Positions 10,563-36,919 of a stretch of DNA of 38,401 nucleotides are shown here, one piece after another; position 1 is the stretch's first letter; every line of letters begins with the position of its first letter. Below the pieces are notes generated by a model. The model saw nothing but the letters and a program-made list of their open reading frames with translations, had not been told where the DNA came from and did not search any database. The stretch covers positions 1 through 38,401 of the forward strand of contig JAGRLQ010000239.1 in assembly GCA_020441735.1 (NCBI GenBank). Reading direction: 5' to 3'. The translations under genes were made by a program, and so were the position numbers. Source of the DNA: Nitratireductor sp. GTDB taxonomy: Bacteria; Pseudomonadota; Alphaproteobacteria; Rhizobiales; Rhizobiaceae.

Positions 10563-10780
10563 TTCTTACCTCCAAAGCGTTTGATGATCTCATTGACGGC
10601 ATCGAACATCATCGAACCGCCCGCAAAGAGCATGGCGTAGATCGGAAGCGGGACAGACCGTTCGATCCAGCCAGTTGCATCAGCCAGAATGAGCCCGAAA
10701 AAGGCAAGCCAGCAGGAAATCGCCATGACGCGCCGCATGGTCTTGGTAAAGCCGTTCTGCGGCACTTGATCGAGGGTCAT
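10559..10780 (-). CDS. Small 2-TM membrane protein (holin/antiholin candidate)
   Basis: MTLDQ...; 73 aa, two hydrophobic segments, basic C-terminus KRFGGKK; ATGA overlap. Confidence 0.6.
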   Translation of the reverse strand: MTLDQVPQNGFTKTMRRVMAISCWLAFFGLILADATGWIERSVPLPIYAMLFAGGSMMFDAVNEIIKRFGGKK

Positions 10781-13639: not shown

Positions 13640-13642
13640 CGT

Positions 13643-14206: not shown

Positions 14207-14217
14207 TTCCTGCCCTC

Positions 14218-15633
14218 CTAGCGATAGAACACGGAGCAGCTACCGCCTGAAAAGGTGCCGCCCATAAGCTGAACGCGGTCCAATGCCCCGCTTAGCGTTT
14301 TGTCACCAGCGCCATGAACAGGAACGTTCGAATACCCCCGAACCATGTGATCCGACATCCATTGGTTGCCGCCCATGTGGAACAGGCGCATGACGCCCTT
14401 AACCAAGGTCGAGGCTATCAGATCAAACTCGGTCGTAGACGATGTTGAGGACGAGCGATTGCCCGTGTAGCTGTCATACCCGGTGGTTTCGACGCCGCCG
14501 CTATCCCCGAGCCTCACGCCCAGACCTGACGTGACCGCAACATCATCAAACAGGATCAATACCTCTCTGACGCCTGTCGGAATGCCGGTGAAGTTGATGG
14601 CTGTACCAGCGCTGGTTGCCAGTGAAGAAAGCAGGGTCCAACCTTCACTTGCCAGCGCCTCCCATGCTCCGTTCTTGCGAGCATAAGTGTTACCGTCAGA
14701 CGGAGCGTCGTTCTCACCTGCCATGCTGCCGGAATCACTGATCTGGGCCAGTGTATGCGTGTGGCCGGTGGCCGACTTCCCATCCAGAGCAGCCTGCAAA
14801 CCCGTAACGTTGGCGATGGCGTGGGTGTGGGCGGACGCTGCCTTGCCATCCAAAGCGGTCTGGAGACCGGTGACGTTCGCAATCGTGTGCGTGTGCCCCG
14901 TTGCAGCCTTGCCATCCACTGCCGTTTGAAGGCTGTCGAGATTGGCCTGCAATCCGGTGACATTGGCAATCGTGTGAGTGTGGCCGGTGTTAGACTTGCC
15001 AGCCAGGCCGGCATTCATTTCAGCTACGGACGGCGCAGACAGATTGCCCCGTGCAACATCCGGGTCGTTCACATCGGACAGGTTGTTAGCTGCTGCCAGA
15101 AATCCAGCACCGGAGATATAGGCCGCTACCCAAGCCGCACCATCCCAGAACTTGAGACCGATACCAGTGTGGTAGAACAACGCACCGGGTTGCAACGGAT
15201 CGCCGTCATTGTCGGTGGCCGGTTCAGCTGCCTTTTCACCAAGGTACTTGTCATCGAAGTTATCAAAGGCCGTGAATGCCTGGTCTCGGGCAGCCTCGGC
15301 TGCAAGTTGTGCGGTGCCTGCTGCGTTGGCAGCAGCAAGGGCTGCGACCTTGGAAGCATCAGCTGCGGCAGCATCCGCGGCGGCATTGCCCTCGGACGTG
15401 CTCGCATTGCCTTCGGAGGTAAGGGCAGCGGCAGCGCTCGCAGATGATTGACCGGCGCTGGTTGCAGCAGCGTTCGCGCTGGCATCTGCTTCACCTGCCT
15501 TGGTCTCGGCTTCATCCTTGAAGCCCTCGGCATCGGTGGCACTTTGAGCGGCAGCGGCGGCGGCAGTGCTTGCCGATTCGTTCAGCGTTTCCAGCCATTC
15601 GAGGCCGTCGCCCTGGAACAGAAAGAAAGACAT
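14218..15633 (-). CDS. Fibre protein (Ala-rich stalk, HTH-IANVTGLQ repeats, foldon-like motif)
   Basis: FDDKYLG...DNDGDPL and NNLSDV motifs, four HxH repeats, DAPSDGNTYARKNGAW. Confidence 0.8.
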   Translation of the reverse strand: MSFFLFQGDGLEWLETLNESASTAAAAAAQSATDAEGFKDEAETKAGEADASANAAATSAGQSSASAAAALTSEGNASTSEGNAAADAAAADASKVAALAAANAAGTAQLAAEAARDQAFTAFDNFDDKYLGEKAAEPATDNDGDPLQPGALFYHTGIGLKFWDGAAWVAAYISGAGFLAAANNLSDVNDPDVARGNLSAPSVAEMNAGLAGKSNTGHTHTIANVTGLQANLDSLQTAVDGKAATGHTHTIANVTGLQTALDGKAASAHTHAIANVTGLQAALDGKSATGHTHTLAQISDSGSMAGENDAPSDGNTYARKNGAWEALASEGWTLLSSLATSAGTAINFTGIPTGVREVLILFDDVAVTSGLGVRLGDSGGVETTGYDSYTGNRSSSTSSTTEFDLIASTLVKGVMRLFHMGGNQWMSDHMVRGYSNVPVHGAGDKTLSGALDRVQLMGGTFSGGSCSVFYR

Positions 15634-17178: not shown

Positions 17179-17641
17179 CGGCCTGCTTCGGCGCGATCGA
17201 TTCCTGCCAGGCGATGTAGGCCTTCAGCTGCTCGTCCGTCATGCTGTCGAAATCCGGCTCGGGATAGGTGTTCTCGACAGGGATCGGACCACCCTTTGGA
17301 CCGGCATGTTCAACCTGAAACGTGAAGCCGCGATGCTTGCCCTTGGTACGCAGGAGAAACTGAATGTCGGTGCTCTTGCCCGCCCGGATGTTCTGGATCA
17401 GCTTGGTCTCGGCAATGTCGAGGATATCTTCTCCGACATCAGCTGCAACGTCCCGCAACTGCGGATGCTTCTCCATGAACCGGTGCAAAGTGGATCGGCT
17501 ACACCCGAGCAACTGCGCCGAAGTGCCAATGAAGCCCCCGGTTTTCCGCAGTGCTTCCTCGACCTTCGCAATGGTCAGCCTGTGCCGGTTGCCATGCTTG
17601 GCCTTGTCAGCCTTGCCTTTCTTCGCACGTGAGCGTTTCAC
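17165..17641 (-). CDS. terS: Terminase small subunit (HTH)
   Basis: HTH SAQLLGCSRSTL, VEHAGPKGGPI tail; overlaps the terL start. Confidence 0.75.
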   Translation of the reverse strand: MKRSRAKKGKADKAKHGNRHRLTIAKVEEALRKTGGFIGTSAQLLGCSRSTLHRFMEKHPQLRDVAADVGEDILDIAETKLIQNIRAGKSTDIQFLLRTKGKHRGFTFQVEHAGPKGGPIPVENTYPEPDFDSMTDEQLKAYIAWQESIAPKQADGTV

Positions 17642-18369
17642 TCTGCGTCACTCTCGCCTTCTTCTTCGTCCTGTTCTGCCTGGATTTGCTCCAGACGCTC
17701 ATTGGCAAGCTCTGCCATGACCGACAGGGTGACCGCATCGTTCACGATCCCCATGACATCCTTGGTTTTGAGCATCGCCAGGAAGAACTTCTCGTACTCG
17801 GCAAACAGGTGGAGCCAGACCTTGCGGTTCTTGCTGCCCTGCATGATGCGGTCGAGGTTCTGTTGAAATTCCTCCTGATCTTCCGGCAGGAAGGCGATGA
17901 GGATTTCTTCATAAATCGGCGGTCCCAGGCGCAACTTCTCGAAGTCGGGATCGTCAAGCAGGCCCAGATCGGTATCGGTCAGGCCGGAATACTGCTGTTC
18001 GAGCACATCGAGGCTATCGTAGAGCTCGCGCAGGATGTTGGGATCATCCTTGCCGACGATGGCATTCTGGGACAGCTGGATTGCCAGCGCCCGTGCATCG
18101 CTGATCTCCGAAATGATGTCGATGGCCGTGATCTCGGGAAGGCCGGCCGCGATGGAAGCCTTGACCCGGTGATTGCCGGACAGGACCAGCTGCTCGTTCT
18201 CTGTCTCCTTGATGAGAACGGTGCCGAGAAGGGTTCCGTCCCGCTGGATGTTCTCTACCAGCTGGCGGAACTCTCGCTCTGGCATGGAGCGGGCGTTCTT
18301 CTCCAGCAGCTTGAGCTTGCGCGGGTCGACCTGGACCAGTCGGGTTTCGAGTGGTGCGTCAGCGGGCAT
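17638..18369 (-). CDS. ParB/Srx-like N-terminal domain protein
   Basis: LLEKNAR.M...F..LVENI..DG and VLSGNHRV motifs; between the modification gene and terS. Confidence 0.85.
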   Translation of the reverse strand: MPADAPLETRLVQVDPRKLKLLEKNARSMPEREFRQLVENIQRDGTLLGTVLIKETENEQLVLSGNHRVKASIAAGLPEITAIDIISEISDARALAIQLSQNAIVGKDDPNILRELYDSLDVLEQQYSGLTDTDLGLLDDPDFEKLRLGPPIYEEILIAFLPEDQEEFQQNLDRIMQGSKNRKVWLHLFAEYEKFFLAMLKTKDVMGIVNDAVTLSVMAELANERLEQIQAEQDEEEGESDAE

Positions 18370-19768
18370 AGCTGGTAGTCACCTGTCGGTTGCGGTCATC
18401 CTTGAAATACCGCTTGAACCATTCCGCATAGACTTCCTGCGGTGATTGCTCGCGGGGATGCCCCTCGTAATTGATGATGAACCGGGCGCCGGAACGCTCG
18501 TTGGCGTCTGCCTCCTGCTTTTTGAGGATCTTGTAGATGCCCCGGTATTTCATCGAGACCGGGTGGTTCGAGCGAACCGTGGTAACCACCGCCTTGATGG
18601 GGCGGCGATGCAGCAGGCGATGGCTGGCTTCCCGCAATACATCGCTCTGGCAGGCCAGCATGGCGATCAGTTTGGAAACCCTGCCGAACCTGGTCGTGCA
18701 GGTGTCCGACAACAGGTAGACGTACTCGGTTGTCTTGTGGCTGCCGATATTATGCTTCGGCATGGAAAAGGTCAGGATGCCGGCGAGCATGTCATCGAGA
18801 TAGATGAGGAAGTTCAGCGGGCCGGAAGTCCACGGGATGTTCTCTTGCAGGTACAGGCCCTTGATGTAATCGGCATAGCCCGCCTTGCAGCGGACGATCT
18901 CAACCTTGGTGTCGGCATCGATGTCCTCGATATCAACCGGCTTGAAGCGGAATGGCGTACCGGTCCCACTGGAATTGTGGTCGACAACCGAACCCGTGCG
19001 CTGGCTGTTGGAGTAGACGAAGAACTTCGGCTTCATCCCGACACGATGATAGCAGGCGAGTTTTCCGTCCTCGATCTTGTTTTTGTAGACCATGACGTAG
19101 GGAGCGCCCGATTCCTCGATCTCCTGCATGAGCTCGGGAAAGCGATCCGGGTTCCACAGATCGTAGGACGGTTCGTTCCAGGCGATGTTCTCGTTGATGA
19201 ACTTGAACCACTTCTCGTACCAGCCCGAGATGAAGGGCGCGGAGACGATAACACCGCCGCCTTCCTGGATACCCTTGCGCAGATGAGCGCGGAAGTCGCC
19301 GGGGAAGTAGCTGGCGAGGTTCAGTTCATGAACCAGCGCCCGAATTTGCTCGGTTCCCTTTTTCACATAGTCGGGAAACCGGTTTTCGTAATAGAGCCAG
19401 TGCCGCTTGGCATGCTCGGACTTGCCGCCGTAGACCCGGCCCAGATACAGCGCCAGGATCAAGGCGCCAGCCCGTTCCATCTCGCTTGCACCGTCCAGCA
19501 TCGGTTCCCAATGGGCCAGCCGCTCGCGAAACTCGAACCGCTCGGGCTTTCCCATGGCGATGCCCGACAGAACTCCCGACAGCAGGGATACGTCATTGCC
19601 GTGCATTGGCAGCTTCGGATATCGCTTGCCGATGGCGCGTTCGAAGGTAAAGGTGCCGGAACAGCCAACATAGCAGGATTTCCAGGACGAGAAGTCGACA
19701 GCCTTGATGATCTGCATCATGCAGATCGGCGGGATCGATCCGTTGAAAATCTCGTTGCTCTGAAACAC
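18359..19768 (-). CDS. Putative DNA-modification enzyme: adenine-MTase-like domain fused to a Mom/GNAT-like domain
   Basis: YVGCSGTFTFER...GNDV (SAM motif I-like), SAPF in place of DPPY, C-terminal YLLSD...SKLI...PVSMKYRG; likely GTG start 19768. Confidence 0.65.
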   Translation of the reverse strand: MFQSNEIFNGSIPPICMMQIIKAVDFSSWKSCYVGCSGTFTFERAIGKRYPKLPMHGNDVSLLSGVLSGIAMGKPERFEFRERLAHWEPMLDGASEMERAGALILALYLGRVYGGKSEHAKRHWLYYENRFPDYVKKGTEQIRALVHELNLASYFPGDFRAHLRKGIQEGGGVIVSAPFISGWYEKWFKFINENIAWNEPSYDLWNPDRFPELMQEIEESGAPYVMVYKNKIEDGKLACYHRVGMKPKFFVYSNSQRTGSVVDHNSSGTGTPFRFKPVDIEDIDADTKVEIVRCKAGYADYIKGLYLQENIPWTSGPLNFLIYLDDMLAGILTFSMPKHNIGSHKTTEYVYLLSDTCTTRFGRVSKLIAMLACQSDVLREASHRLLHRRPIKAVVTTVRSNHPVSMKYRGIYKILKKQEADANERSGARFIINYEGHPREQSPQEVYAEWFKRYFKDDRNRQVTTSYAR

Positions 19769-19885
19769 CGAACCTTGCCTTTTCGATGAGACCCTGCATG
19801 CCGGATGCAACGGCGCGATGTGGCAACGAGGTCGAATGAAACCGGCTTGCAGGGTGCCACGGAAACTGCTGACCCCCCTCGAAAT

Positions 19886-19945
19886 CGTCAAGTAAAAAAT
19901 TACAGACTGCGCAAATTAAGCCAAACTGTCATTTAAAACTTGACA
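19886..19945. promoter_or_regulatory. Divergent promoter pair, each -35 embedded in a 19-bp operator
   Basis: CGTCAAGTAAAAAATTACA (19886-19904, TTGACG on minus) and TGTCATTTAAAACTTGACA (19927-19945, TTGACA on plus). Confidence 0.7.
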
Positions 19946-20007
19946 GCCAGACACTAATTGCTAGTTCTGATTGTGCGACATGCAAATCACCTACCAAGGA
20001 GACAGAA

Positions 20008-20954: not shown

Positions 20955-21226
20955 CCAAGGAACTCTCAACCCACGCCCATGTCGACATCGCCCAGGAGTT
21001 CATTGCCAAGCTGTGGTGCTACGTGGCGCTGCCGGATGGCACCCTCGGCATCGCTGTTGCCAACGAACGCGGCTACACGCCGGTCAGTCCGTTCTGGTTC
21101 AAGAGCGAAACCTACGACGAGGCCGACCGGGAAGCCGACCGCCTCAACCGCAAGCATCTCGATCTCGAACCCGACATCGCGCTGCGCATCATCACCACTA
21201 CCATGAGACTAGGAGAAGCGGCATGA
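20951..21226 (+). CDS. Hypothetical protein
   Basis: GGAGG RBS, ATGA overlap. Confidence 0.75.
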   Translation: MTKELSTHAHVDIAQEFIAKLWCYVALPDGTLGIAVANERGYTPVSPFWFKSETYDEADREADRLNRKHLDLEPDIALRIITTTMRLGEAA

Positions 21227-22679: not shown

Positions 22680-22756
22680 TGTCACTTTTTACTTTACAAT
22701 AGGGCAATTATGCGCCAAGTTGTAAATGTAAAACATACACCTACCACGGAGTGAAA
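22680..22756 (+). promoter_or_regulatory. 77-bp promoter/operator/leader module, copy 1
   Basis: Near-identical to 29534-29610 with the same spacing: TGTCACTTTTTACTTTACA-N13-GCGCCAAGTTGTAA.TGTAAA-N5-CACCTACCACGGAG.GAAA. Confidence 0.85.
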
Positions 22757-23757: not shown

Positions 23758-24254
23758 ACGGCGAGCTCAAGACGTTTCAACCGGCCAAGCTGGAACCAAT
23801 GACCGAGGACGAGTTTCTGGCGAAGTTCTCCAGCATGCACCCCGCGATCTCGGAGGAACAGTGGCGGGCGCAGTACCGCCGCATGCAGGAGGAAATCATC
23901 TGGCTCAACGACGAGTATCAGGTGAACATCCGCCAGCGCTCCCTCCAGCTGGGGGATGATACCTATTGGGATCATCTCTCCATCAAGCGGGTGGACAGAG
24001 CGCCGGTCCATGACTGGCGCGATCTGCAAGCCATCAAGAACAAGCTCTACGGCCCGGAATACGAGGCCGTCGAACTCTATCCGGCCGAGAGCCGGCTCGG
24101 AGACACCGCGAACCAGTATCACCTGTGGGTGCTGGTCGATGAAAGCGGTGATCCTGTCCAGATACCGGTCGGCTGGTTCGGTGACCGTCTGGTCCTCTCA
24201 ACATCCAGCCATGGCGCGGTTCAGCGCCCACCTGCCAACGGAGAAACCTCATGA
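23754..24254 (+). CDS. Conserved phage protein (HLS...Q.IKN...AVE.YP...YHLW family), paralogue 1
   Basis: Motif shared with 28709-29155. Confidence 0.8.
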   Translation: MNGELKTFQPAKLEPMTEDEFLAKFSSMHPAISEEQWRAQYRRMQEEIIWLNDEYQVNIRQRSLQLGDDTYWDHLSIKRVDRAPVHDWRDLQAIKNKLYGPEYEAVELYPAESRLGDTANQYHLWVLVDESGDPVQIPVGWFGDRLVLSTSSHGAVQRPPANGETS

Positions 24255-24598
24255 CACCCCAAGAAATCGATGCCGTCATCGGCGGCAACGTGCGCAAGCA
24301 CCGCACCCTTCGCGGCATTACCCAGGAACAGCTGGCGGACGCATGCAACGTGTCCTTTCAGCAGATCCAGAAATACGAGAACGGCAAGAACCGGATGGGC
24401 GGCAGCCGCCTTGTCCAGATTGCCAACGCGCTCACCTGCACGATGGATGACCTGTTCGACGGCACCCCGACCGGATCGCCCAATCCGAGCAGCATCCCGG
24501 AGCTCTTGCAGATTCCGATTGCCGCTATCGAAAAGCTCGGCAGCACACGGGGCATGACGGTTCTCGCCATCCCGGACAAGTTCGCGGAGGGGCTGTAA
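24251..24598 (+). CDS. XRE-family HTH regulator
   Basis: TQEQLA...VSFQQIQKYENGKNR. Confidence 0.9.
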   Translation: MTPQEIDAVIGGNVRKHRTLRGITQEQLADACNVSFQQIQKYENGKNRMGGSRLVQIANALTCTMDDLFDGTPTGSPNPSSIPELLQIPIAAIEKLGSTRGMTVLAIPDKFAEGL

Positions 24599-24599
24599 G

Positions 24600-25070
24600 A
24601 TGAACGACACCCTGCTGATAAACCACATGGTGTTGATCGATCCATTCGAGAACAAGGTCGATTCGATCATCCTCGACAGGCCAGAGATTGACGGGAACCT
24701 GCTGCGGCACAACATCGGATGCAATACGCTGGCCCGGGTGCAGTTGAACAATTCGATCGACCTATGGGTTGATGATGAGGGCCTGTTCGCGCAGGACCAG
24801 CAGTTTTTCGCCATCGGCTCCTATCCAAACCCAATTGCAGGCAAGGGGCTCGTCACAGGGCTCTCTGGGCCGGACACGGTGTCTCTCCCTTCCACCATCA
24901 CGGCAACCGATATCGCGCGTTTCGTGCGGTTCATAGGCGACCAGTACGATCTCGAAAACTTCATCGAGATGGGCCACATTCAACGCCCGCATTCGGGAAT
25001 GATGGACCCCGACACCGGGGAGGTCAGTGTCTTTTGGCAGTGGACCGCGCAGCCAAGAGAGGATGCCTGA
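24600..25070 (+). CDS. DUF3846-like protein
   Basis: LWVDDEGL...PIAG motif. Confidence 0.65.
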   Translation: MNDTLLINHMVLIDPFENKVDSIILDRPEIDGNLLRHNIGCNTLARVQLNNSIDLWVDDEGLFAQDQQFFAIGSYPNPIAGKGLVTGLSGPDTVSLPSTITATDIARFVRFIGDQYDLENFIEMGHIQRPHSGMMDPDTGEVSVFWQWTAQPREDA

Positions 25071-25141
25071 AAAGAAACGGGCCGCTCTCGCGACCCGTTT
25101 TGCCATCACCTACCAAGTGAAGCGATCAGAAGATCGTGGCC
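25068..25141 (-). ncRNA. Predicted antisense sRNA carrying UUGGUAGGUGAU
   Basis: Promoter TTGACT-N17-TATTCA (25175-25147); GCCA/UGGC stem closing two hairpins; terminator ACGGGUCGC-GAGA-GCGGCCCGU-UUCUUUU; ends approximate. Confidence 0.7.
25070..25101. terminator. Probably bidirectional intrinsic terminator
   Basis: AAACGGGCCGC-TCTC-GCGACCCGTTT with T runs on both strands. Confidence 0.75.
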
Positions 25142-25207
25142 TCCTGTGAATAGGTTGGAGATACGGCAAAGTCAAGGCGATTTGCAATTGCCAGCGGCCA
25201 ATCCAAT

Positions 25208-25226
25208 TGTAAAGTTACAGTTTACA
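25208..25226. promoter_or_regulatory. 19-bp operator
   Basis: TGTAAAGTTACAGTTTACA upstream of the 25251 gene. Confidence 0.7.
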
Positions 25227-25850: not shown

Positions 25851-25883
25851 CAATCAACACCACCTACCAACAGGAGAGCAATC

Positions 25884-26831
25884 ATGGCTGAACACAGCAA
25901 GATCGAATGGACGGATGCCACTTGGAACACCATCACCGGCTGCGAACTGGTCGATGAAGGCTGCCGCAACTGCTATGCGGCGCTTCTCGCGGCCACACGC
26001 CTCAAGAACCATCCATCACGCAAGGGGCTGGCACGGGTGAATGCCGCAGGCGTTGCCAAGTTCACCGGCGAAGTCCGATTGAACGAACAATGGCTTCTCG
26101 ATCCGATCCGCTGGCAGCGCCCGCGCAACATCTTTGTCATCGCTCATGGCGACATCGCCCACAGAAACGTGCCTGACGATTGGATCGACAAGGTGTTCGC
26201 CGTCATGGCGCTGTCGAACAGGCATAACTACCAGGTCTTGACCAAGCGCCCCGGCAGGCTCGCGGATTACCTCTATGGCAAGGGTCTCGTCGGGGGCGTT
26301 GTCGGTCGTGAGCAACGGATCAAGGATCGTGCGCAGTCACTTGTGGGCCTTGATTGGACTGGCGACTTTCCATTGCCAAACGCCATCATCGGAACCTCGG
26401 TCAGTGAGCAGGAAAGCGCTGACGCTCGGCGCGAGGATTTGCGAAAAATCCATCATGCAGGATTCAAGACGTTCGTATCCTACGAGCCAGCACTTGGACC
26501 GGTCGACTGGAAAGGCTGGGAGTTTGTCGACTGGATCATCTCGGGCGGGGAAAGCGGGCCGCATGCCAGACCATCATATCCCGACTGGCACCGCGCCACG
26601 CGGGACTTCTGCTTGATAAATGAGATCGCCTATTTGTTCAAACAGTGGGGAGGGTGGCATCCATGGATGGAACCGCTGGCCGATGGCTGCATCAATCTGA
26701 TCTCGTTCGGTAAGAAGCCATCCCACTACTATCAGGATGGCGATCTCATTATGAGCCGGGTCGGCAAGAAAAAGGCCGGTCGGTTTCTCGATGGCAAGCT
26801 GCATGACGGGTTTCCGATGAGGGCAGCATGA
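25884..26831 (+). CDS. Phage Gp37/Gp68 (DUF5131) radical-SAM-like protein
   Basis: IEWTDATWN..TGC....GC.NCYA, LTKRP, GGESG and FKQWGG motifs. Confidence 0.92.
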   Translation: MAEHSKIEWTDATWNTITGCELVDEGCRNCYAALLAATRLKNHPSRKGLARVNAAGVAKFTGEVRLNEQWLLDPIRWQRPRNIFVIAHGDIAHRNVPDDWIDKVFAVMALSNRHNYQVLTKRPGRLADYLYGKGLVGGVVGREQRIKDRAQSLVGLDWTGDFPLPNAIIGTSVSEQESADARREDLRKIHHAGFKTFVSYEPALGPVDWKGWEFVDWIISGGESGPHARPSYPDWHRATRDFCLINEIAYLFKQWGGWHPWMEPLADGCINLISFGKKPSHYYQDGDLIMSRVGKKKAGRFLDGKLHDGFPMRAA

Positions 26832-27007
26832 AAAAGGAACCCCGCTACAAAACCGAAGCGAACCGCATCCACCGGCTTGGATGGATGTGCCTCGCGATTG
26901 GCATCATTCACATGCTCACGACCGGACGAAGCAGCGATGTTCCGGTGATCGCGGCAATCGGCTGCTACCTGGCCTCATTCATTGTTGCCAACTGCGGGAG
27001 GGAATGA
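26828..27007 (+). CDS. Small 2-TM protein, 59 aa (not in the ORF track)
   Basis: ATGA overlaps at both ends; MKKEPRY...NCGRE. Confidence 0.6.
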   Translation: MKKEPRYKTEANRIHRLGWMCLAIGIIHMLTTGRSSDVPVIAAIGCYLASFIVANCGRE

Positions 27008-27222
27008 TTGTGACCGACGACAAGATCATCGACCTGGTTGCTCGCCTTCCGAAGCCGCCGAAAAATGTCGACATCGCGCCGATCCTGGAAGCTGCCGACG
27101 ATCTCGAAACGGCAGCCTTTGTCTGCTTTGGAGCCGACGACACAGCCACCGGGGAAATCCTCGCCTACGTCAACGCGGTTCGCCGGGTGGTGATGCCGAT
27201 TCAGGGGGAACATGATGCCTAG
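27004..27222 (+). CDS. Hypothetical protein
   Basis: GGGAGG RBS; start 27004 or GTG 27010. Confidence 0.65.
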   Translation: MIVTDDKIIDLVARLPKPPKNVDIAPILEAADDLETAAFVCFGADDTATGEILAYVNAVRRVVMPIQGEHDA

Positions 27223-27424
27223 AGCCGCCCCGACCAATCCAATCTACACGCCGCCCGACTATGGCGTGAACGAGGGGGAGCTTTGCAAGCGCGACGGCTG
27301 CTGTGGTCGCATCATCATTGAGCAGGAACCTTGCCACTGCGCAGCAATGAGAATGCCTCCTTGCAGTGCTTGTGAGCAAGCCTGGTTCGAATGTTCAGAC
27401 TGCGGATGGAGGTCGGACGAATGA
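27212..27424 (+). CDS. Cys-rich zinc-binding small protein
   Basis: C..DGC.G...C.C....PPCSAC...C..CGW. Confidence 0.7.
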   Translation: MMPRAAPTNPIYTPPDYGVNEGELCKRDGCCGRIIIEQEPCHCAAMRMPPCSACEQAWFECSDCGWRSDE

Positions 27425-28182
27425 GCATCGGCAAGCACCACAGCGCCAGCGCCGGCACGACGACATGGATCACGCCGCCGCACGTGATCGAAGCCCTGGG
27501 CGGCGCGGATGGCTTTGATCTCGATCCCTGCGCCGCAGTCAACCAGCCATGGCCTTGCGCCCGGCAATCACTCACAATCTCCGACAACGGTTTGCTGCAA
27601 CGCTGGTCCGGCCGCGTCTGGCTCAATCCGCCCTACACGAATGCCGAGATCGGCAAGTGGATGGCCCGGCTGGGCGATCATGGCACCGGCACCGCGCTGA
27701 TCTTCGCCAGGACGGAAACCGAGTTCTTCCAGCGCCAGGTGTTCGAGCGGGCCGATGCACTCCTGTATCTCGAAGGACGGCTGCATTTCCACGTGGCCGA
27801 GGCGATGACCGTCACCATTGGCAAGCGGGTTCATGATTTACAGGCCGGGGATCGCTATCCAGCGAACGCTGGGGCGCCTTCGGTGCTCTGCGCATATGGC
27901 ACCCTCGACACGGAAATCCTCGCGTCCTGCGGCCTCCCAGGCTCGTTCATGGCCCTTACACTGGCCGGCATCATCTCCGTGCAGCTGCCGGTCGGTTCCT
28001 GGATCGAGGAAGTGCGGTCCTATCTGGAAGGGATCAACAGGCCGGTGACGCTCTCGGAACTCTACCGGGCCTTCGCCACGCATCGGAAGGCGAGGGACAA
28101 CCCGAACTACCGGGCGAAGATCCGGCAGACCCTCCAGCGGGGCGATTTCAACCGAATTGAAGCAGGGCTTTGGAGCACATGA
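27421..28182 (+). CDS. Phage DNA N6-adenine methyltransferase with C-terminal HTH-like extension
   Basis: W.TPP, FDLDPCA, VWLNPPY and LIFARTET motifs; GGAGG RBS before ATG 27421. Confidence 0.88.
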   Translation: MSIGKHHSASAGTTTWITPPHVIEALGGADGFDLDPCAAVNQPWPCARQSLTISDNGLLQRWSGRVWLNPPYTNAEIGKWMARLGDHGTGTALIFARTETEFFQRQVFERADALLYLEGRLHFHVAEAMTVTIGKRVHDLQAGDRYPANAGAPSVLCAYGTLDTEILASCGLPGSFMALTLAGIISVQLPVGSWIEEVRSYLEGINRPVTLSELYRAFATHRKARDNPNYRAKIRQTLQRGDFNRIEAGLWST

Positions 28183-28712
28183 GTCCTCTACGCAAAATCA
28201 CCAGTGAAGAAATGTTCGCTGCCAACGAGGCCTGGGGCGCCAACTGCGGACCAGCTGCAATTGCGGCAGTGCTCGGCATGACGCTCGACCAGGTTCGCCC
28301 GTTCATGGGCGATTTCGAAAAGAAGCATTACACGAACCCGACCCTCATGTGGGACACGCTGCGCCGGATCGGAGCGCTGTTCTCATATCGCGGTGGCGAG
28401 CTCGGCCGGAACAACTGGCCGATCTATGGCTTTACCCGCATCCAATGGGAAGGCCCATGGACACGACCAGGCGTTCCGAAGGTTGCCAGATACCGGCACA
28501 CTCACTGGATCGGGGTTAATGCGATCGACAGCAACAACATCGGCATCTTCGACTGCAACGCGACCGGCAACGGCACCGGATGGACCCCTCTCACGGATTG
28601 GGAAAACATCCTCGTTCCCTGGATCATCGAGGAACTAGTCCCGCGAGCCAACGGCGAATGGCACATCACCCATGCCGTCGAGATCAAGCTGCCATGGAGG
28701 TTCAAGGGATGA
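28179..28712 (+). CDS. Peptidase C39-like (Cys/His/Asp) protein
   Basis: NCGPAAIAAVL...HW...IFD pattern. Confidence 0.55.
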   Translation: MSPLRKITSEEMFAANEAWGANCGPAAIAAVLGMTLDQVRPFMGDFEKKHYTNPTLMWDTLRRIGALFSYRGGELGRNNWPIYGFTRIQWEGPWTRPGVPKVARYRHTHWIGVNAIDSNNIGIFDCNATGNGTGWTPLTDWENILVPWIIEELVPRANGEWHITHAVEIKLPWRFKG

Positions 28713-29155
28713 TCGACCCTATCGATAGCCTGCCAAGATGGGAGCGACGGCAAGTCCTCGAACTGGAAAGGCAACGCCGTAAGTCGGGGAAGTGGCCGGA
28801 CTGGAGGATCATCAATCTCCGGCAACAACAAACCCGCAGATGGTCACGATCATTTGCCAGGGCTCATGTGAACGATGTCTTTGCAGTCTTGGATCGAACT
28901 CTGGAATCCGGTGTCCGCCATCTCATGATTACCAGCGCGTCATGTACACGCCCGACCTTCTACGAAATGCAGAGGATCAAAAACGAGATCGCTGGGGAAG
29001 ATGCTGTTGCTGTCGAAGTGTACCCGAAGCAGAGCGACATATTCGACGGGGCTGACGCCTATCATCTGTGGGTCTTGCCGGATGGCCTCGGCTTCTCAAT
29101 TGGCGACCCGGTTCGGCTGGAAAAACACGGGGCTGCCAGCGTGGCAACCAGGTAG
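28709..29155 (+). CDS. Conserved phage protein, paralogue 2 of 23754-24254
   Basis: RHL...MQRIKNEIAGEDAVAVEVYP...YHLWVL; GGAGG RBS. Confidence 0.8.
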   Translation: MIDPIDSLPRWERRQVLELERQRRKSGKWPDWRIINLRQQQTRRWSRSFARAHVNDVFAVLDRTLESGVRHLMITSASCTRPTFYEMQRIKNEIAGEDAVAVEVYPKQSDIFDGADAYHLWVLPDGLGFSIGDPVRLEKHGAASVATR

Positions 29156-29258: not shown

Positions 29259-29334
29259 TGGTTGCGGGGGCCGGACTCGAACCGGCGACCTCCAGGTTAT
29301 GAGCCTGGCGCGCTACCGTCTGCGCTACCCCACT
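29259..29334 (-). tRNA. tRNA-Met(CAU), initiator-like, with encoded CCA
   Basis: AGTGGGG-TA-GCGC-AGACGGTA-GCGC-G-CCAGG-CTCATAA-CCTGG-AGGTC-GCCGG-TTCGAGT-CCGGC-CCCCGCA-ACCA; 76-nt cloverleaf. Confidence 0.93.
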
Positions 29335-29533: not shown

Positions 29534-29610
29534 TGTCACTTTTTACTTTACAGTACAGGTAAAACGCGCCAAGTTGTAAGTGTAAATTATCCACCTACCA
29601 CGGAGCGAAA
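29534..29610 (+). promoter_or_regulatory. 77-bp promoter/operator/leader module, copy 2
   Basis: Repeat of 22680-22756. Confidence 0.85.
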
Positions 29611-29862: not shown

Positions 29863-29888
29863 CCACCTACCAATTGGAGAAACCTACC

Positions 29889-30221
29889 ATGCTGGCAACC
29901 AACATCAAGAATCTGCCCGAAGGCGAATACATGACCGAGCACGGATACTCGCAGAGCTACCCGTGGAAAGTCATCGCGCGGACGCCCGCCACAGCCACGC
30001 TCGCACGTGTCCACGTTGAGAGAGATCCCGAGTGGCAGCCGGAGTTCCATCCGGGCGGTTTCGCTGCCCATTGCTCAAATCAGTCTGACCAGACCTGGCT
30101 GTTTGGCAGATTGGACGAAGCCGACACAATAACCGTTCGCAAGACGAAGTACGGCTGGCGGCGCAAGGGGGTCGGTTTCACCGAGCAGATGGCCCGCCAC
30201 TTCTACGACTACAATTTCTGA
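29889..30221 (+). CDS. Conserved phage hypothetical protein
   Basis: GGAG RBS; F.PGGFAAHC.NQ..Q.W and FYDYNF terminus. Confidence 0.8.
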   Translation: MLATNIKNLPEGEYMTEHGYSQSYPWKVIARTPATATLARVHVERDPEWQPEFHPGGFAAHCSNQSDQTWLFGRLDEADTITVRKTKYGWRRKGVGFTEQMARHFYDYNF

Positions 30222-30238
30222 ACAGGAGACCACCTACC

Positions 30239-30571
30239 ATGAAGCAGAAGATCCTCGAAATCCGCGACCGCGCCACGTTCATCTCGGTTCTGGCAACCGA
30301 ATTATGGACAGGCAAGACCACCATCACCGAACGCTACTATCTCGAACGGGCTGGCTATGGAGACGGCGGCAGCCGGTATATCATCATGACCCGCCTCGAA
30401 GGACTGGAGACACAATGCGATCCCTACAAGTGGCCCAGCTTTCGAACGATGAAGGCCGCACACGTCTACATCCTCCAGCATTGGGATGAACTCGAATCCG
30501 GTGATGTCGTCGATGTTGAGTTTATCAACAGCGAAAGCAAGGAACCGAAGAAGTCGGAGCGGTTCCTATGA
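30239..30571 (+). CDS. Conserved phage hypothetical protein
   Basis: AGGAG RBS; LEIRDRATFI...DPY.W..RTM..AH..I..HWDEL.SGDVVDVEFI. Confidence 0.8.
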   Translation: MKQKILEIRDRATFISVLATELWTGKTTITERYYLERAGYGDGGSRYIIMTRLEGLETQCDPYKWPSFRTMKAAHVYILQHWDELESGDVVDVEFINSESKEPKKSERFL

Positions 30572-30771
30572 GCAAGTTCACCATCTCCGTCGAGACCGAC
30601 AACGCAGCCTTTTCCGATGACTGGCGCAATGCCATCGGCAACATCCTGCATCATTCCTACAAGCACCTGTTCAACCATGGCGAGGCCGGGCGGGAACGGG
30701 GTGTGCGGTCACACAATCTACGCGACCTGAACGGCAACACGGTCGGCACCATCGAAATCCGGGAGGATTGA
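30568..30771 (+). CDS. Conserved phage hypothetical protein
   Basis: TDNAAF...LRD.NGNTVG; ATGA overlap. Confidence 0.75.
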   Translation: MSKFTISVETDNAAFSDDWRNAIGNILHHSYKHLFNHGEAGRERGVRSHNLRDLNGNTVGTIEIRED

Positions 30772-30772
30772 G

Positions 30773-31441
30773 ATGGCCGAAGCTGTAATTGCCAAAGCCC
30801 GCGATGAGGCAAAGGTCAACGTTGCCATACGCCGTCGCCTACGGGAGCGCGGCTGGGACAAATGGGCGATATCCGCCATCAAGGATCAGGCCAGCCTCAA
30901 AACCTTCGACAAGCTGCCGTTCATCATCAACGGCGGCTGCTATTGTAAACACGAGATGGGGCGCGGCGGCTACAGCTTCGCCCGTCTCACGAAGTGGGAT
31001 TTCAAAACTGACACCGGCTTGTTCTCGTTCTTCTGCGGTATGTCTATTGAAAGCAGATCGCGCGATGAATGTCTGACCTTCGAACAGTACCGGGATGGCC
31101 CGATGCGCGAGGGAGACCTGCTTACGATGACGCCCCAGCAGTTCGATTTTTGGTTCCGCAAAAACACCGAGAAGATTGCCGAACAGGTTCGTGAACGCTG
31201 GCCGGAAGGCGTCGATGACAACAATCTTGGGGAATACCTCGGAACCATGATCGGTGTCGGCGGCTCTAACGGACCAGATTCACCATCCATCGAACGCCGC
31301 AATCTTCAATGGTCTTGTCGATGGTCATCTTTGGGAGATGTGGATCGAACGCTGACAGTGAAAGGCCCCCAGCTGATTGCCAAGTTCCGTGAGACGCACG
31401 GTATTCTCGATTCATCAAACCCGCAGCTTACCCTGTTCTAA
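30773..31441 (+). CDS. Hypothetical protein ending in QLTLF
   Basis: GGAGG RBS; 222 aa. Confidence 0.75.
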   Translation: MAEAVIAKARDEAKVNVAIRRRLRERGWDKWAISAIKDQASLKTFDKLPFIINGGCYCKHEMGRGGYSFARLTKWDFKTDTGLFSFFCGMSIESRSRDECLTFEQYRDGPMREGDLLTMTPQQFDFWFRKNTEKIAEQVRERWPEGVDDNNLGEYLGTMIGVGGSNGPDSPSIERRNLQWSCRWSSLGDVDRTLTVKGPQLIAKFRETHGILDSSNPQLTLF

Positions 31442-31465
31442 CCACCTACCAAGTGAGCACCTACC

Positions 31466-32335
31466 ATGACACAGCACATTCCGATCTCCCAGATCACCCC
31501 GAACCCGAACCAGCCCCGGAAGCACTTCGACAAGGCAAAACTACGCCAGCTGGCCGACACCATCGCCGCCCGTGGGTTGATCCAGCCGATCACCGTCCGT
31601 CCGCTCGGTGGTAGGCCGATGCGCTATATGATTGTTGCCGGTGAACGCAGATGGCGAGCACACAAGCTGCTGGAGAAAGAGGGCAAGGCCGAAACCATCC
31701 GGGCCAATGTCGAGAAGATGGGGAAGGACGAGATGGCGCTGCAAGCCATCATCGAGAACAAGGATCGCGAGGACATCAACCCAATTGAGCAGGCGCTTGC
31801 CTATCAGGACATGATTGACCGCGGCTGGACTGTCGAGAAGCTGGCAGCCGAGCTCGGCATGAAGCAACCCCGCCGAATCTCCGACCGGCTTCTCCTGCTT
31901 GGCTGCTGCGATACCATCCGGCAACTGGTCGCCTCGGGCCAGTTCTCCACCGATGTTGCCTATCACGTGGCCGGTTTGCCGGAGCATGAACAGATGCTCG
32001 TGCTCAAGGCCTTCAACGCCGGCAAGACCGACATCGGCTATCTCAAGGCCATGGTCCAGGCGTTGATCGACAAGCGCAACCAGTCCGGCATGTTCGGGGA
32101 TGATGACCAGCCATCACCGGAAGGCGGCAGGCAACTCAAGTCGATGGAGAACCGCATCGAGCAGATCGTCAAAGACCTGTCGCGCGGCTGGAAGGATGGC
32201 GAATGCGTCATCGCCAAGTCCGTCGATCCCAACAGGGCAGGGCGGATAGCCGAGCAGTTGCAGCTGATCGCCAAGACGGCAAACCAGATGGCCCGCGCCA
32301 TGACGCAGGCCCAGGCAGCAAGGGAGTTGTTCTGA
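31466..32335 (+). CDS. parB: ParB/Spo0J-family partition protein
   Basis: PNPNQPRKHF, GLIQPITVR, IVAGERRWRA, ENKDREDINPIEQA and an HTH. Confidence 0.92.
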   Translation: MTQHIPISQITPNPNQPRKHFDKAKLRQLADTIAARGLIQPITVRPLGGRPMRYMIVAGERRWRAHKLLEKEGKAETIRANVEKMGKDEMALQAIIENKDREDINPIEQALAYQDMIDRGWTVEKLAAELGMKQPRRISDRLLLLGCCDTIRQLVASGQFSTDVAYHVAGLPEHEQMLVLKAFNAGKTDIGYLKAMVQALIDKRNQSGMFGDDDQPSPEGGRQLKSMENRIEQIVKDLSRGWKDGECVIAKSVDPNRAGRIAEQLQLIAKTANQMARAMTQAQAARELF

Positions 32336-32430
32336 TGAAGTTAAATGCGGGTAATTTGCTTCATCGACTTAGAGAAGTGTCCACGAATACCGTGTGACCA
32401 TCTGCAATACCAAAACAGCAGGAGGTCAGG

Positions 32431-32637
32431 ATGACGCAGATCACCCCTATTTGTTTTACAGTCAACGAGTTCCTTTCCTGGTCCCGCATTTCGCGGGCGA
32501 CTTTCTACCGCGAGGTTGCTGCCGGCAACATAGTTGTTCGAAAACTCGGAAAGCGGTCCCTCATTGATCGTGAGGAAGCGGAACGCTGGTTTAACGCGTT
32601 GCCTGAAAGGTCACCAGTCACCCCAGCCGCGACCTGA
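32431..32637 (+). CDS. Excisionase/AlpA-like HTH protein
   Basis: FTVNEF...ISRATFYREV..G.I..RKLGKRSLI; AGGAGG RBS. Confidence 0.8.
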   Translation: MTQITPICFTVNEFLSWSRISRATFYREVAAGNIVVRKLGKRSLIDREEAERWFNALPERSPVTPAAT

Positions 32638-34683: not shown

Positions 34684-35231
34684 CAGGGCGTCTTTCGCCT
34701 CCTGACGGCTTCAAGCGGATGCACGTTGTCGGAGTTATCCCCAGTCTGTGGATCGGCAGTGCCATAATCTCCCATCTCATAATTGGATAGTTCACTATCC
34801 ATATGATTGTGATTGTGATTGTGACTGGCATGCTTCCGCTCTGCTAATGGATTGCTTGTGGCGAGCGCTGTTTTCTTGTTTTTCAATGCCTTGGCGGCAT
34901 GTGCCTTTTCCGACCGCTGTTTTCTTGCCTGATATTTCTCTTTTGCCTCCAGCCATTCGGCCTTCAATCGCTTCTGGTAGTACCGGCCCCGCAACAGGAT
35001 GCAGAACTCGTCGAGGATGGGCTTGATGAGGCGCAAGAACATTGCCTCATCGCATCGCAGGCGGCGCATGATCCAGTCCGGTTCGGCGGGAATGGTGCAT
35101 TCCGGCGAGCGCCACATGAGCATGAGGATGGACAGGTAGGCGCCGCGTTCCTCGAATGAGAGATGGTGGGTATCCAGTTCGAAGTCCGATACCCACAGGG
35201 GCATGAACGGAAGTTTGTTATTCGGGGCCAT
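34683..35231 (-). CDS. DUF1376 (YdaU-like) replication initiation protein
   Basis: LPFMPLWVSDF..DT.HLS.EERGAYL.IL..MW; ATG 35231. Confidence 0.88.
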   Translation of the reverse strand: MAPNNKLPFMPLWVSDFELDTHHLSFEERGAYLSILMLMWRSPECTIPAEPDWIMRRLRCDEAMFLRLIKPILDEFCILLRGRYYQKRLKAEWLEAKEKYQARKQRSEKAHAAKALKNKKTALATSNPLAERKHASHNHNHNHMDSELSNYEMGDYGTADPQTGDNSDNVHPLEAVRRRKTP

Positions 35232-35595
35232 GGTAGGTGCAGCTTTCGATGTTGCACCGCTCGCGTTCCAACGCAGCAATTTCCTGATTGATCTGGTCCA
35301 GCCGCCAGCCCTGCAACGCCGCAGGCATCCATTCCGGTTCCCGTGCATAGCAGGCCTTGAGGAAAGGCGGGCCATAAGCAGCGATCAAAGACATCAGATG
35401 ATCACGCTGTGGGGAAGATCGCCGCTGCATCCAATTGTCTACGGTGGCAGCAGGAATGCCGGTCAGGGCCTCGACATTGTGGCCGACATTGTTGGGGTAG
35501 CTCTTGCGCAGATACGCAAGCATGCCCTCCAGATCAAACAGGGTTGCGTGTGCATGGCCGGAACCTTGCGGTGGCAAATTGGTAGTCTTGTTCAT
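35218..35595 (-). CDS. CII-position HTH regulator
   Basis: TGIPAATVDNW....SSP...HL..LI.AYGP.FL; alternative in-frame GTG start at 35745 with GGAGG. Confidence 0.65.
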   Translation of the reverse strand: MNKTTNLPPQGSGHAHATLFDLEGMLAYLRKSYPNNVGHNVEALTGIPAATVDNWMQRRSSPQRDHLMSLIAAYGPPFLKACYAREPEWMPAALQGWRLDQINQEIAALERERCNIESCTYHGPE

Positions 35596-35737: not shown

Positions 35738-35956
35738 TCAGGCACGATCCGCCTCCAACTTCTCCGCACGGGAAAGCTGGCCTGGTGAATACCGGCCTTT
35801 CAGACGCACCGAGAAATCCTTTGCCAAATCTCTCGGAATGCCGCGAACACGCCAATGACTCACCGCCGACACTGTGCGACCATAGAATGCAGCCACACGG
35901 CTATTGCCGCCCAGCCGGTCAATCCCATCATTCGCGCAATTGGTAGGCTTACCCAT
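35738..35956 (-). CDS. cro: Cro-like repressor
   Basis: IDRLGG...VA...G.TVSAVSHWR..GIP; divergent from cI. Confidence 0.8.
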   Translation of the reverse strand: MGKPTNCANDGIDRLGGNSRVAAFYGRTVSAVSHWRVRGIPRDLAKDFSVRLKGRYSPGQLSRAEKLEADRA

Positions 35957-35987
35957 AGTCTCGGCCAATATCCGGCACCCCCCAGAG

Positions 35988-36037
35988 TGTCAACTTAAAA
36001 CTTACGAACCGGAGACGTTTGTAACTTTAAAAGTACA
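35988..36037. promoter_or_regulatory. OR-like operators and cro promoter
   Basis: TGTCAACTTAAAACTTACG (35988-36006, TTGACA on minus) and the 18-bp TGTAACTTTAAAAGTACA (36020-36037). Confidence 0.7.
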
Positions 36038-36071
36038 TTGCACTGATAGTTGCAACCTATAGAAAACCCTC

Positions 36072-36692
36072 ATGGAAAGAGGTTATACAGCAAAGGCGAT
36101 CGAGGCAGCCCGCCGAAAGCGTGGCTTGACGAAGGCCGAACTCTCCCGTCGCGTCAACGTATCCCGGATGACGATAACCGTCTGGGAACGTGGGACTGCT
36201 TTTCCCAAGCAGGAGAACCTGGACGCCCTGGCGGATGCGCTACAGGTCGAACGCCGTTCGTTGCTGGTCCCTGACGATGCGGTTGGCTTCCATCAGCAAC
36301 CCATTGCCGGCAGGCTGGCTCGCGATCAATGGCTCGGCCAACGATCCAAGAATAACTACGGATTCGCGCCGATTTCCTTTGATCATCGCTTTCCCACAGA
36401 CGCGCAGAGCTTCTATGTCATGGATGACAATTCCGGTGGCGACCGATGCCCCCATGAAATGGTGCTGCATGTCGTTTGCACGGATTCAATGGAGCCGCTT
36501 TCCAACGATCAACTAGTCATTGTTGAGCGCAAAAAGAACGATCTGACGGAAACGACATTACGGCAATTGCGGCGAATGGGCGACAGCCTGGCGCTTCTCT
36601 GGCTCGACGATGAAGCCGAATCACCCGAACCGCTGACGCAAGAAACCTCCATAGAAGGCGTGGTCATCGCAGGCTGGAAACAGTTCGCTTAA
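36072..36692 (+). CDS. cI: CI-like repressor (HTH plus degenerate S24 domain)
   Basis: GLTKAELSRRVNVSRMTITVWERG HTH; S24-like C-terminus ending IEGVVI. Confidence 0.85.
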   Translation: MERGYTAKAIEAARRKRGLTKAELSRRVNVSRMTITVWERGTAFPKQENLDALADALQVERRSLLVPDDAVGFHQQPIAGRLARDQWLGQRSKNNYGFAPISFDHRFPTDAQSFYVMDDNSGGDRCPHEMVLHVVCTDSMEPLSNDQLVIVERKKNDLTETTLRQLRRMGDSLALLWLDDEAESPEPLTQETSIEGVVIAGWKQFA

Positions 36693-36749: not shown

Positions 36750-36919
36750 CGCTCCCCCCTGAAACGATAGGTGTCGTTTTACAGGCGGCACCTGTTTCAC
36801 ATGACATATTCGGTTTGGCATCAAGCAGCCGCCTGGATGCCAAGTCTGCGACCGGCCGGCTCCTTCCCCCGGGTCTCCTCCGCGACCGGCCGGTCGCATC
36901 ACCTACCAGGAGCAATGTC

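What the first reader, a model, noticed from the sequence alone, without database searches (positions are those of the whole stretch)
25068..25176. Predicted phage sRNA whose loop is antisense to the translation-start regions of nine early genes
Seen: the only CACCTACCA copy not beside a start codon (25107) lies in an intergenic unit that reads as a complete gene on the minus strand. It has a promoter cTTGACT-N17-TATTCA, then GGCCACGAUCUUCUGAUCGCUUCACUUGGUAGGUGAUGGC, then a GAGA-tetraloop terminator with a U tail. The RNA folds as a GCCA/UGGC stem enclosing CGAUC/GAUCG and UCACU/GGUGA hairpins, leaving UGGUA exposed. Complementarity to targets extends past the 9-mer: 14 nt at 31443, 13 nt at 19986 (reaching the SD), 12 nt at 36897, 10 nt at 25861 and 29864. 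Known: P1 C4, P4 CI, P22 Sar and lambda OOP are phage antisense RNAs that act on one locus. Inference: one trans-acting RNA silences translation of a genome-wide early regulon that includes parB, the DUF1376 replication gene and the Gp157/bet operon. No operator overlaps its promoter, which fits expression during lysogeny.
Basis: partly seen in the sequence, partly recalled or inferred. Interest (0 to 1): 0.95.

Follow-up and report, generated by a model that had tools for sequence, protein, structure and literature searches.

The report
Phage antisense RNA silencing early genes
A phage carries the same nine-letter tag at the start of nine of its early genes and, on the opposite strand, a predicted small RNA gene that mirrors the tag, so one RNA likely switches these genes off together; an unrelated phage group has the same tag and a similar predicted RNA, but no transcript or repression has been shown.

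Summary
CACCTACCA occurs 11 times (0.07 expected). Ten copies sit at the starts of nine early genes. The eleventh (25107) is the only one with a promoter-like and a terminator-like element on the opposite strand.

New support: four viral contigs of one lineage, sharing no detected protein with this phage, carry 8-10 tags plus one orphan hairpin of the same build. A model built only from them finds the window's unit (E 6e-5). A ~90%-identical relative keeps the unit while losing the adjacent gene.

Against: no RNA data; no seed-target covariation; other phages carry the tag without a unit; only ~5 of 9 seed bases are exposed.

No Rfam membership. The second lineage weakly resembles Salmonella prophage IsrB; the window's unit does not directly, and five IsrB-like phages show no tag regulon. 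This scan noted the same architecture, with other tags, in other genomes; my paper searches found no description. Verdict: likely a multi-target phage antisense RNA (0.6), a new variant of a known kind.

The parts
25147..25175 (-). Predicted sigma-70-type promoter TTGACT-N17-TATTCA; the -10 lacks the -7 T, as most alphaproteobacterial promoters do
   Evidence: only 11 such sites in the window, about 0.011 per 75 nt; PMC8407463 abstract
25068..25141 (-). Predicted ~74-nt small RNA; ends inferred, +1 about 25142-25140
   Evidence: found by a model built from an unrelated phage lineage, E 6e-5
25106..25120 (-). Seed hairpin UCACU-UGGUA-GGUGA; loop holds a YUNR (UUGG) motif; seed UGGUAGGUG
   Evidence: YUNR definition from PMC6562991 passages
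25123..25136 (-). CGAUC/GAUCG side hairpin inside the GCCA/UGGC closing stem; absent from the second lineage
25069..25100 (-). Intrinsic-terminator-like hairpin (GAGA loop, U.G wobble only on this strand) and U-rich tail; T4 follows on the + strand, so possibly bidirectional
19986..19998 (+). Tag, 13-nt pairing reaching the SD, before gene 20008 (unknown function)
22738..22746 (+). Tag before DUF2786/DUF7168 gene 22759
24229..24238 (+).
25861..25870 (+). Tag before DUF5131 gene 25884
29592..29600 (+). Tag before gene 29611 (unknown function)
29864..29889 (+). Tag plus a second 1-mismatch copy abutting ATG 29889
30231..30239 (+). Tag between SD and ATG 30239
31443..31466 (+). Two tags (14-nt and 9-nt pairing) before parB-like gene 31466
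35231..35239 (-). Tag abutting the ATG of the DUF1376 replication gene
36897..36908 (+). Tag before Gp157 gene 36920, which is followed by the RecT/Bet gene at 37507
25208..25219 (.). Perfect operator-like palindrome at the divergent rightward promoter; outside the RNA's promoter
35738..36692 (.). Divergent Cro-like (35738-35968, -) and CI-like (36072-36692, +) genes with operator-like sites between them; neither carries the tag

Best explanation
The orphan copy of the tag lies in a predicted promoter-hairpin-terminator unit on the minus strand that likely makes a ~74-nt antisense RNA, which is predicted to pair with the tag at the starts of nine or ten early genes and would block their translation. 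Shown by sequence: the tags, their positions, the complementarity, and the unit's recurrence in an unrelated phage lineage. Inferred steps: (1) the loop UUGGUA, with a U-turn motif, first contacts UACCA(A) on the mRNA; (2) the 5-bp stem opens to give 9-14 bp; (3) the 5' arm GCUUC adds a second helix on GGAG, so the duplex covers or abuts the SD or AUG and excludes the 30S subunit. The tag is probably also a C/A-rich translation-enhancing leader, which would explain phages that have the tag without the RNA. The operator-like sites at the tagged transcription units and their absence from the RNA's promoter suggest a second, post-transcriptional lock on early genes in the lysogen. Shut-off late in infection is equally open.
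For: (a) 11 copies against 0.07 expected; hairpin-complementary stretches of 7 nt or more at 10 of 37 early starts and 1 of 25 late starts. (b) Of 11 copies, only 25107 has both an antisense promoter and an antisense terminator; the same 1-of-n result holds in L119 (1 of 10), G435 (1 of 8) and G436 (1 of 9). (c) The second lineage was found by a start-site pattern, not by the unit, yet its orphan copy shares TCACCTACCAA..GTGAAGC and an AACGG..CCGTT hairpin; blastp found no protein shared with the window. (d) Model R2, built from that lineage only, ranks the window unit first: E 6e-5 in the window, 0.0014 in 0.9 Mb, 24.9 bits against at most 15.8 in 30 other loci holding the same core word. (e) All three versions of hairpin 2 have a G.U on the antisense strand that is an A.C mismatch on the sense strand; L119 and L216 differ by 3 two-sided and 2 one-sided changes with every pair kept. 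(f) A ~90%-identical relative in run X9 joins 24596 to 25070, dropping the adjacent gene and keeping the unit. (g) Net binding after unfolding is -8.6 to -18.8 kcal/mol at the ten tagged starts (circular by design). (h) Precedents: GcvB silences an ACA enhancer just upstream of the SD (PMC3879156 abstract); IsrB, a prophage RNA of similar build, is expressed (PMC2330248 passages).
Against: No covariation between seed and tag: both lineages have the same seed, and swapping their 5' arms changes mean duplex energy by under 1 kcal/mol. G438 (85.8 kb, complete) has 12 start-side tags and only one other copy, in a coding-like context; no unit was found there or in G433, G434 or G439. In the second lineage the AACGG hairpin recurs elsewhere and other tagged starts also follow hairpins, and a window-only HMM preferred such a start over the unit. 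Hairpin covariation rests on two sequences and is not significant (58 of 500 shuffles). The whole-genome search with R2 did not report the unit. Five IsrB-type phages have no tag regulon. Part of the strand bias in folding energy follows from the G/U-rich antisense strand.
Confidence: 0.6

Rival explanations
1. The tag is a purely cis-acting leader, a C/A-rich enhancer spread with early-gene cassettes. The orphan is a decayed cassette leader behind a bidirectional terminator, with GGAG turned to GAAG and no trans effect.
For: Tag without unit in G438, G433, G434, G439. Two tagged leaders are 77-nt repeats, 83% identical (22680 and 29534). The orphan's 3' flank resembles tagged leaders (GTGAAGCGA against GGAGCGA). 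Hairpin-plus-tag also heads ordinary genes in the second lineage and in G438.
Against: It does not explain the same GTGAAGC extension and hairpin in two unrelated lineages (local alignment 0 of 2000 shuffles), antisense promoters only at the orphan, the antisense wobble bias, or retention in the X9 relative.
Confidence: 0.2
2. A protein reads the tag, either as an RNA-binding translational regulator or as a polar DNA site like mycobacteriophage stoperators. The hairpin copy is then a structured site or decoy on the sense strand.
For: All 11 copies point with local transcription. Tandem (CACCTAC)n arrays in G438 look like multiple binding sites. Unrelated phages share the word, while a reversed control word gave 0 of 80 loci with three or more start-side copies, against 5 of 79 loci (3 lineages), which could point to a conserved host reader.
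Against: No protein is shared among the tag-bearing lineages beyond terminase, head and polymerase-type hits. No RNA-binding family was named for the window ORFs scanned (ORFs under 50 aa not scanned). A separate palindromic operator exists for the CI-like protein. On the sense strand the orphan lies directly behind a terminator-like hairpin with no room for a promoter.
Confidence: 0.12
3. The RNA is made and pairs with the tags, but its effect is not a ribosome block: it triggers premature termination or decay, or it activates or stabilises the mRNAs.
For: Several tags end just upstream of the SD rather than on it. P4 CI RNA is recalled to act through termination (recalled, not read here).
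Against: Four copies abut the AUG or lie between SD and AUG, and duplex predictions extend over GGAG at most sites. Tagged leaders are A/C-rich with no inhibitory structure apparent to open (not tested in detail).
Confidence: 0.08

Closest known systems
IsrB-1/IsrB-2 of Salmonella prophages Gifsy-2/Gifsy-1 (Rfam RF01386; PMC2330248, passages read)
   Same: Small RNA lying backwards in a prophage early region; a hairpin with core C(U)UUGGU-N-GGU followed by a terminator hairpin. The second lineage's unit matches it weakly and reciprocally: 22 bits, E 0.068; R2's best hit in 14 kb of Gifsy-2 is IsrB, E 0.017.
   Different: The window unit gets no RF01386 hit and no significant direct alignment (142 and 152 of 2000 shuffles). 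The seed has A where IsrB has C. There is no recE neighbour. The five IsrB-type phages examined have no repeated tag at gene starts. The passages read name no IsrB target.
Start-associated sequences (SAS) of cluster K mycobacteriophages (PMC3203893 and PMC12699233, passages read)
   Same: An asymmetric repeat of 11-19 copies just before starts of non-structural genes, function unknown, with an RNA or protein reader left open. Four cluster K phages have one opposite-strand copy away from any start.
   Different: Different word. SAS contains the SD itself, whereas this tag lies beside it. No ESAS-type inverted repeat was looked for. Here a candidate reader RNA is identified.
GcvB (PMC3879156, abstract read)
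   Same: A G/U-rich seed pairing with a C/A-rich element immediately upstream of the SD of many mRNAs, where the element is itself an enhancer.
   Different: GcvB is a host RNA with degenerate targets. Here the targets are one near-invariant 9-mer on the phage's own genes, and the seed is half inside a stem.
Phage antisense RNAs P22 Sar and lambda OOP (PMC12197685, part 2 of 6 read); P1 C4 and P4 CI (recalled)
   Same: Phage-encoded antisense RNAs that hold down lytic or antirepressor functions by base pairing.
   Different: Each acts on one gene or operon, and Sar and OOP act on the locus they overlap. This RNA would act in trans on at least six transcription units on both strands. No Rfam hit other than tRNA in the window.

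Membership tests
IsrB (RF01386) | Reaches the Rfam gathering score of 35 bits | tested here: not met
   Window: no hit at E up to 10 or in the genome search. Second lineage: 22 bits. Controls: Gifsy 99.3 bits, HK225 38.2 bits.
IsrB (RF01386) | UUGGU-N-GGU core in a hairpin directly followed by a terminator hairpin | tested here: met
   Invariant core columns in alignment A4
IsrB (RF01386) | Direct sequence similarity beyond chance | tested here: inconclusive
   Window vs IsrB 142 and 152 of 2000 shuffles, and an HMM miss. Second lineage vs IsrB 2 and 0 of 2000. Window vs second lineage 0 of 2000 (cores were preselected).
IsrB (RF01386) | Lies antisense just upstream of recE in the early-left operon | tested here: not met
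   Antisense within the early region, but between DUF3846 and DUF488-like genes; compare
Trans-acting base-pairing sRNA (works like) | Own promoter and intrinsic terminator, no plausible ORF | tested here: met
   The only long ORF from inside it (24762-25109) runs through the terminator, antisense to a Pfam-matching gene, and most of it is missing in the X9 relative.
Trans-acting base-pairing sRNA (works like) | Accessible seed complementary to several translation-start regions | tested here: met
   only about 5 of 9 seed bases are exposed
Trans-acting base-pairing sRNA (works like) | Seed and targets covary across relatives | tested here: inconclusive
   Same seed in both lineages; the arm swap shows no cognate preference; no relative with a changed tag found
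Trans-acting base-pairing sRNA (works like) | Transcript detected and seed-dependent regulation shown | not testable with these tools
   Needs RNA data or bench work
P1 C4 / P4 CI | Rfam C4-type match; RNA processed from the same-strand operon it controls (recalled) | tested here: not met
   Only tRNA in the Rfam scan; the unit has its own antisense promoter, with targets up to 12 kb away
Cluster K SAS | Asymmetric repeat, oriented with transcription, at starts of non-structural genes | tested here: met
Cluster K SAS | Consensus GGGATAGGAGCCC containing the SD (PMC3203893) | tested here: not met
   The tag is a different word beside the SD
Mycobacteriophage stoperators | Asymmetric DNA site bound by the immunity repressor | not testable with these tools
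   Orientation fits; a separate palindrome fits the CI-like protein better

The most novel reading that the evidence does not exclude
A portable RNA 'regulon code' moves between unrelated temperate phages, probably across host phyla. A phage installs one 9-nt enhancer tag before its early genes and silences them all with one small hairpin RNA of an IsrB-like superfamily. That would be a repressor-independent second lock on the prophage, and would also act on any incoming phage that uses the same tag. It would supply the missing reader for phage start-associated sequences.
Probability: 0.3. Interest if true: 0.85.

Novelty: new variant of a known kind. Interest (0 to 1): 0.65.

Why it matters
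The phage antisense RNAs in the review section read here each control one gene or operon. An RNA that addresses ten dispersed early genes through one installed tag would be an RNA counterpart of the repressor-operator regulon. It makes two open questions testable with simple reporters: what reads start-associated sequences in phages (left open in PMC3203893 and PMC12699233), and what prophage RNAs of the IsrB build do. The same seed and tag in two phages with no detected shared protein suggests that the module travels on its own. A 74-nt RNA with a 9-nt tag could also serve as a compact orthogonal translation switch.

Tried and rejected
Expression: no RNA holder listed among 12 runs; this is no evidence either way. 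The letters of the X9 relative inside the unit were not obtained, so conservation of its seed and promoter is open.

Search for DNA relatives: BLAST of the unit against phages gave no match, and against plasmids and of the L119 unit against phages only short chance matches; 2 of 60 related genomes matched only at short stretches, the one read being a terminator-type hairpin.

Pattern scans for the unit: 1 chance hit; 25 of 29 viral hits had at most 2 tag copies; 0 of 63 metagenome hits had 3 or more; 0 of 22 genome hits had start-side copies; 11 of 15 hits were single-copy; 31 of 400 order genomes matched and none of the 30 loci examined held a unit. Start-side pattern: 17 of 400 family genomes had one copy, none more.

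Related phages: prophage flanks from 10 of 16 capsid-related genomes, and phage Ssp-JY39, show no tag enrichment; 0 of 80 DUF5131 neighbourhoods had more than 2 exact copies. Protein-led locus searches found nothing.

G433:2190 and G434:6896/14937 were considered as further units and dropped: no antisense promoter was found at the G433 site, and none of them reached significance. Model R1 had a mis-registered second hairpin and was not used; R2 replaced it.

An SD-mimic acting on the ribosome was rejected as a main role: net -5.4 kcal/mol to a recalled 16S-tail motif against -14.4 to a phage site. A host regulon was rejected: 10 copies in the other 3.13 Mb, none fitting the tag-SD-ATG pattern. 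An IsrB-wide tag regulon was not seen in five phages.

Literature: searches (listings only) showed no paper describing one phage RNA against a shared start tag; subscription papers and bioRxiv supplements were not searchable. PMC12612679 (one passage) concerns a different, E. coli 'IsrB'.

Full report
Setting. The window is one whole contig (C402) of an incomplete genome assembly. It holds a tailed phage with sheath, head, portal and terminase genes on the minus strand (1-19.9 kb), a rightward early region (20-32.6 kb), and a leftward replication block. It also has divergent Cro-like and CI-like genes and a Gp157-RecT block at the right end. No integrase was seen on the contig; temperate life is inferred from the repressor pair, operator-like sites and an excisionase-like ORF. 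An alphaproteobacterial host is my inference. Near-identical DNA is in activated-sludge and wastewater runs from three studies, one of which may be the source.

Observation. CACCTACCA occurs 11 times against 0.07 expected. Ten copies lie at nine gene starts and the eleventh lies at 25107. The promoter, 40-nt body, hairpins and terminator are as described, and the five pairing lengths are exact. A wobble copy heads the HTH gene at 24251. The CI-like and Cro-like genes are untagged. Only GGU of the seed is fully unpaired; recognition would need a loop contact followed by stem opening. The loop contains a YUNR motif, which can form a U-turn scaffold for fast pairing (PMC6562991, passages). The -10 box lacks the -7 T, which is the majority state in Alphaproteobacteria (PMC8407463, abstract).

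Internal control. One rule was applied to every copy: antisense promoter before the seed and a strong antisense hairpin after it. It is met by 1 of 11 copies in the window, the orphan. Operator-like TGTAA-N2-TTACA sites (13 at up to 2 mismatches; shuffle mean 8.2, so it is their clustering that counts) fall at six promoter regions, each heading a unit with a tagged gene. None lies in 25147-25175.

A second lineage. L216, L220 and L221 are close kin with 8-10. These are ~38-kb phages with SU10/P22-type head genes, an integrase, ArdA and a PF06737 transglycosylase; an actinobacterial host is my inference from the last. They share no blastp hit with the window. Each has one orphan copy whose antisense strand reads TAGAAT, the hairpin GCUUCAC-UUUGGUAG-GUGAGC, then an AACGG..CCGUU hairpin. 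A covariance model from these alone (R2) finds the window unit on the minus strand as best non-self hit. It scores 24.9 bits against at most 15.8 in 30 loci that hold the same core word by chance; the filtered whole-genome search missed it. Hairpin 2 keeps all 12 pairs through five changes between L119 and L216, which is not significant with two sequences, and its wobble lies on the antisense strand in all three versions. A second antisense promoter-like site upstream could give a ~125-nt form with two seeds.

A close relative. Contigs of run X9 hold a ~90%-identical phage that joins 24596 to 25070: the DUF3846 gene is gone, while the terminator and unit stay. Its letters inside the unit were not seen.

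Results against. The tag is wider than the unit. G438 (complete, 12 start-side copies, some tandem), G433, G434 and G439 carry it at starts with no unit found. The word is nonetheless special: 5 of 79 loci (3 lineages) had four or more start-side copies by a loose rule, against 0 of 80 with three or more for one reversed control word. L426's count shrinks to 2-3 by eye. This suggests that the tag has a value of its own, most simply as a C/A-rich enhancer. In the second lineage, hairpin-plus-tag also heads ordinary genes, and a window-only HMM preferred such a start to the unit. Swapping the two RNAs' 5' arms shows no cognate preference, so there is no covariation evidence. Capsid-related prophages lack the tag.

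IsrB. Rfam gives only a tRNA at gathering level and nothing relevant at the unit. The L119 unit aligns weakly to isrB, and R2's best hit in the Gifsy-2 early region is IsrB. IsrB is an expressed 88-94-nt RNA lying backwards beside recE (PMC2330248, passages), which shows that RNAs of this build are made. The window unit itself is not significantly similar to IsrB. Gifsy-1, Gifsy-2, HK225 and two Klebsiella phages have no ACCGACC at starts. In four of them, matches of 7 nt or more occur at 0 of 23, 1 of 27, 2 of 28 and 1 of 20 annotated starts, against 10 of 37 early starts here. So this works like an IsrB-shaped RNA, may be a distant relative through the second lineage, and is not a member by test.

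Mechanism. The best reading (0.6) is translational repression in trans: loop contact, 9-14-bp duplex, and a predicted second helix of GCUUC on GGAG, with net binding favourable at all ten tagged starts. The closest mechanistic precedent is GcvB silencing an enhancer just upstream of the SD (PMC3879156, abstract). Rivals are an enhancer-only tag with a dead leader (0.2), a protein reader (0.12), and pairing with another outcome (0.08). Timing in lysogeny is inferred only from operator placement.

Novelty. My paper searches (listings) showed no description of one phage RNA aimed at a shared start tag. Earlier unchecked notes of this scan report the same architecture with other tags in other genomes; no look-alike of this sequence was indexed. 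I class it as a new variant of a known kind. What this case adds is the same seed and tag in two unrelated phages, and phages with the tag alone. Interest 0.65.

Noticed in passing
L652:7741 (Gifsy-1 cII start), L651:12453 (Klebsiella phage cII start): The best match of each phage's own IsrB hairpin among annotated starts is 8 nt at the cII start, and the matched word differs as the two IsrB variants differ (CCAACCGA, CCACCGAC). Gifsy-2 has the same word upstream of its annotated cII start; HK225 and L650 showed none in the 94 nt printed. IsrB may target cII.
   Followed up: partly
window 19893, 22687, 22721, 25208, 29493, 29541, 29575, 35988-36037, 36738, 36772: Operator-like TGTAA-N2-TTACA sites at six promoter regions, probably read by the CI-like protein at 36072.
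   Followed up: partly
window 22680-22756 and 29534-29610: 77-nt repeat, 83% identical, holding operators, tag and SD: a duplicated leader cassette.
   Followed up: partly
window 29259-29334 (-): tRNA with CAT anticodon lying antisense inside the early region.
   Followed up: no
window 17638-19891 (-): A DAM-like-phage1 + phage GNAT fusion and a ParB_N-like gene directly upstream of the terminase genes, plus Dam (27391) and MT-A70 (34096) methyltransferases: a possible DNA-modification set.
   Followed up: no
window 10056-15633 (-): Tail-fibre, chaperone and endolysin genes sit between terminase and portal, an unusual order.
   Followed up: no
window about 21190-21223: A bulged variant CACCACTACCA before gene 21223; net binding -8.6 kcal/mol, equal to the weakest true site.
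   Followed up: partly
G438:84646-85601 and 30196-31377: Tags in tandem, up to four CACCTAC units, behind a repeated GC-rich hairpin cassette; no antisense unit found.
   Followed up: partly
window 25105-25115: ATCACCTACC resembles the recalled 16S 3' tail with one inserted base, so the RNA's seed resembles an extended SD with one inserted U; predicted net binding to the tail motif is weak. The loop UUGGUAG also resembles a common tRNA D-loop (recalled, not tested).
   Followed up: partly
window 26816-27011, 27210-27420, 28182-29115, 30573-30731, 30777-31433, 32337-32617: The relative in run X9 skips or replaces several early-region stretches, showing gene-level turnover.
   Followed up: no
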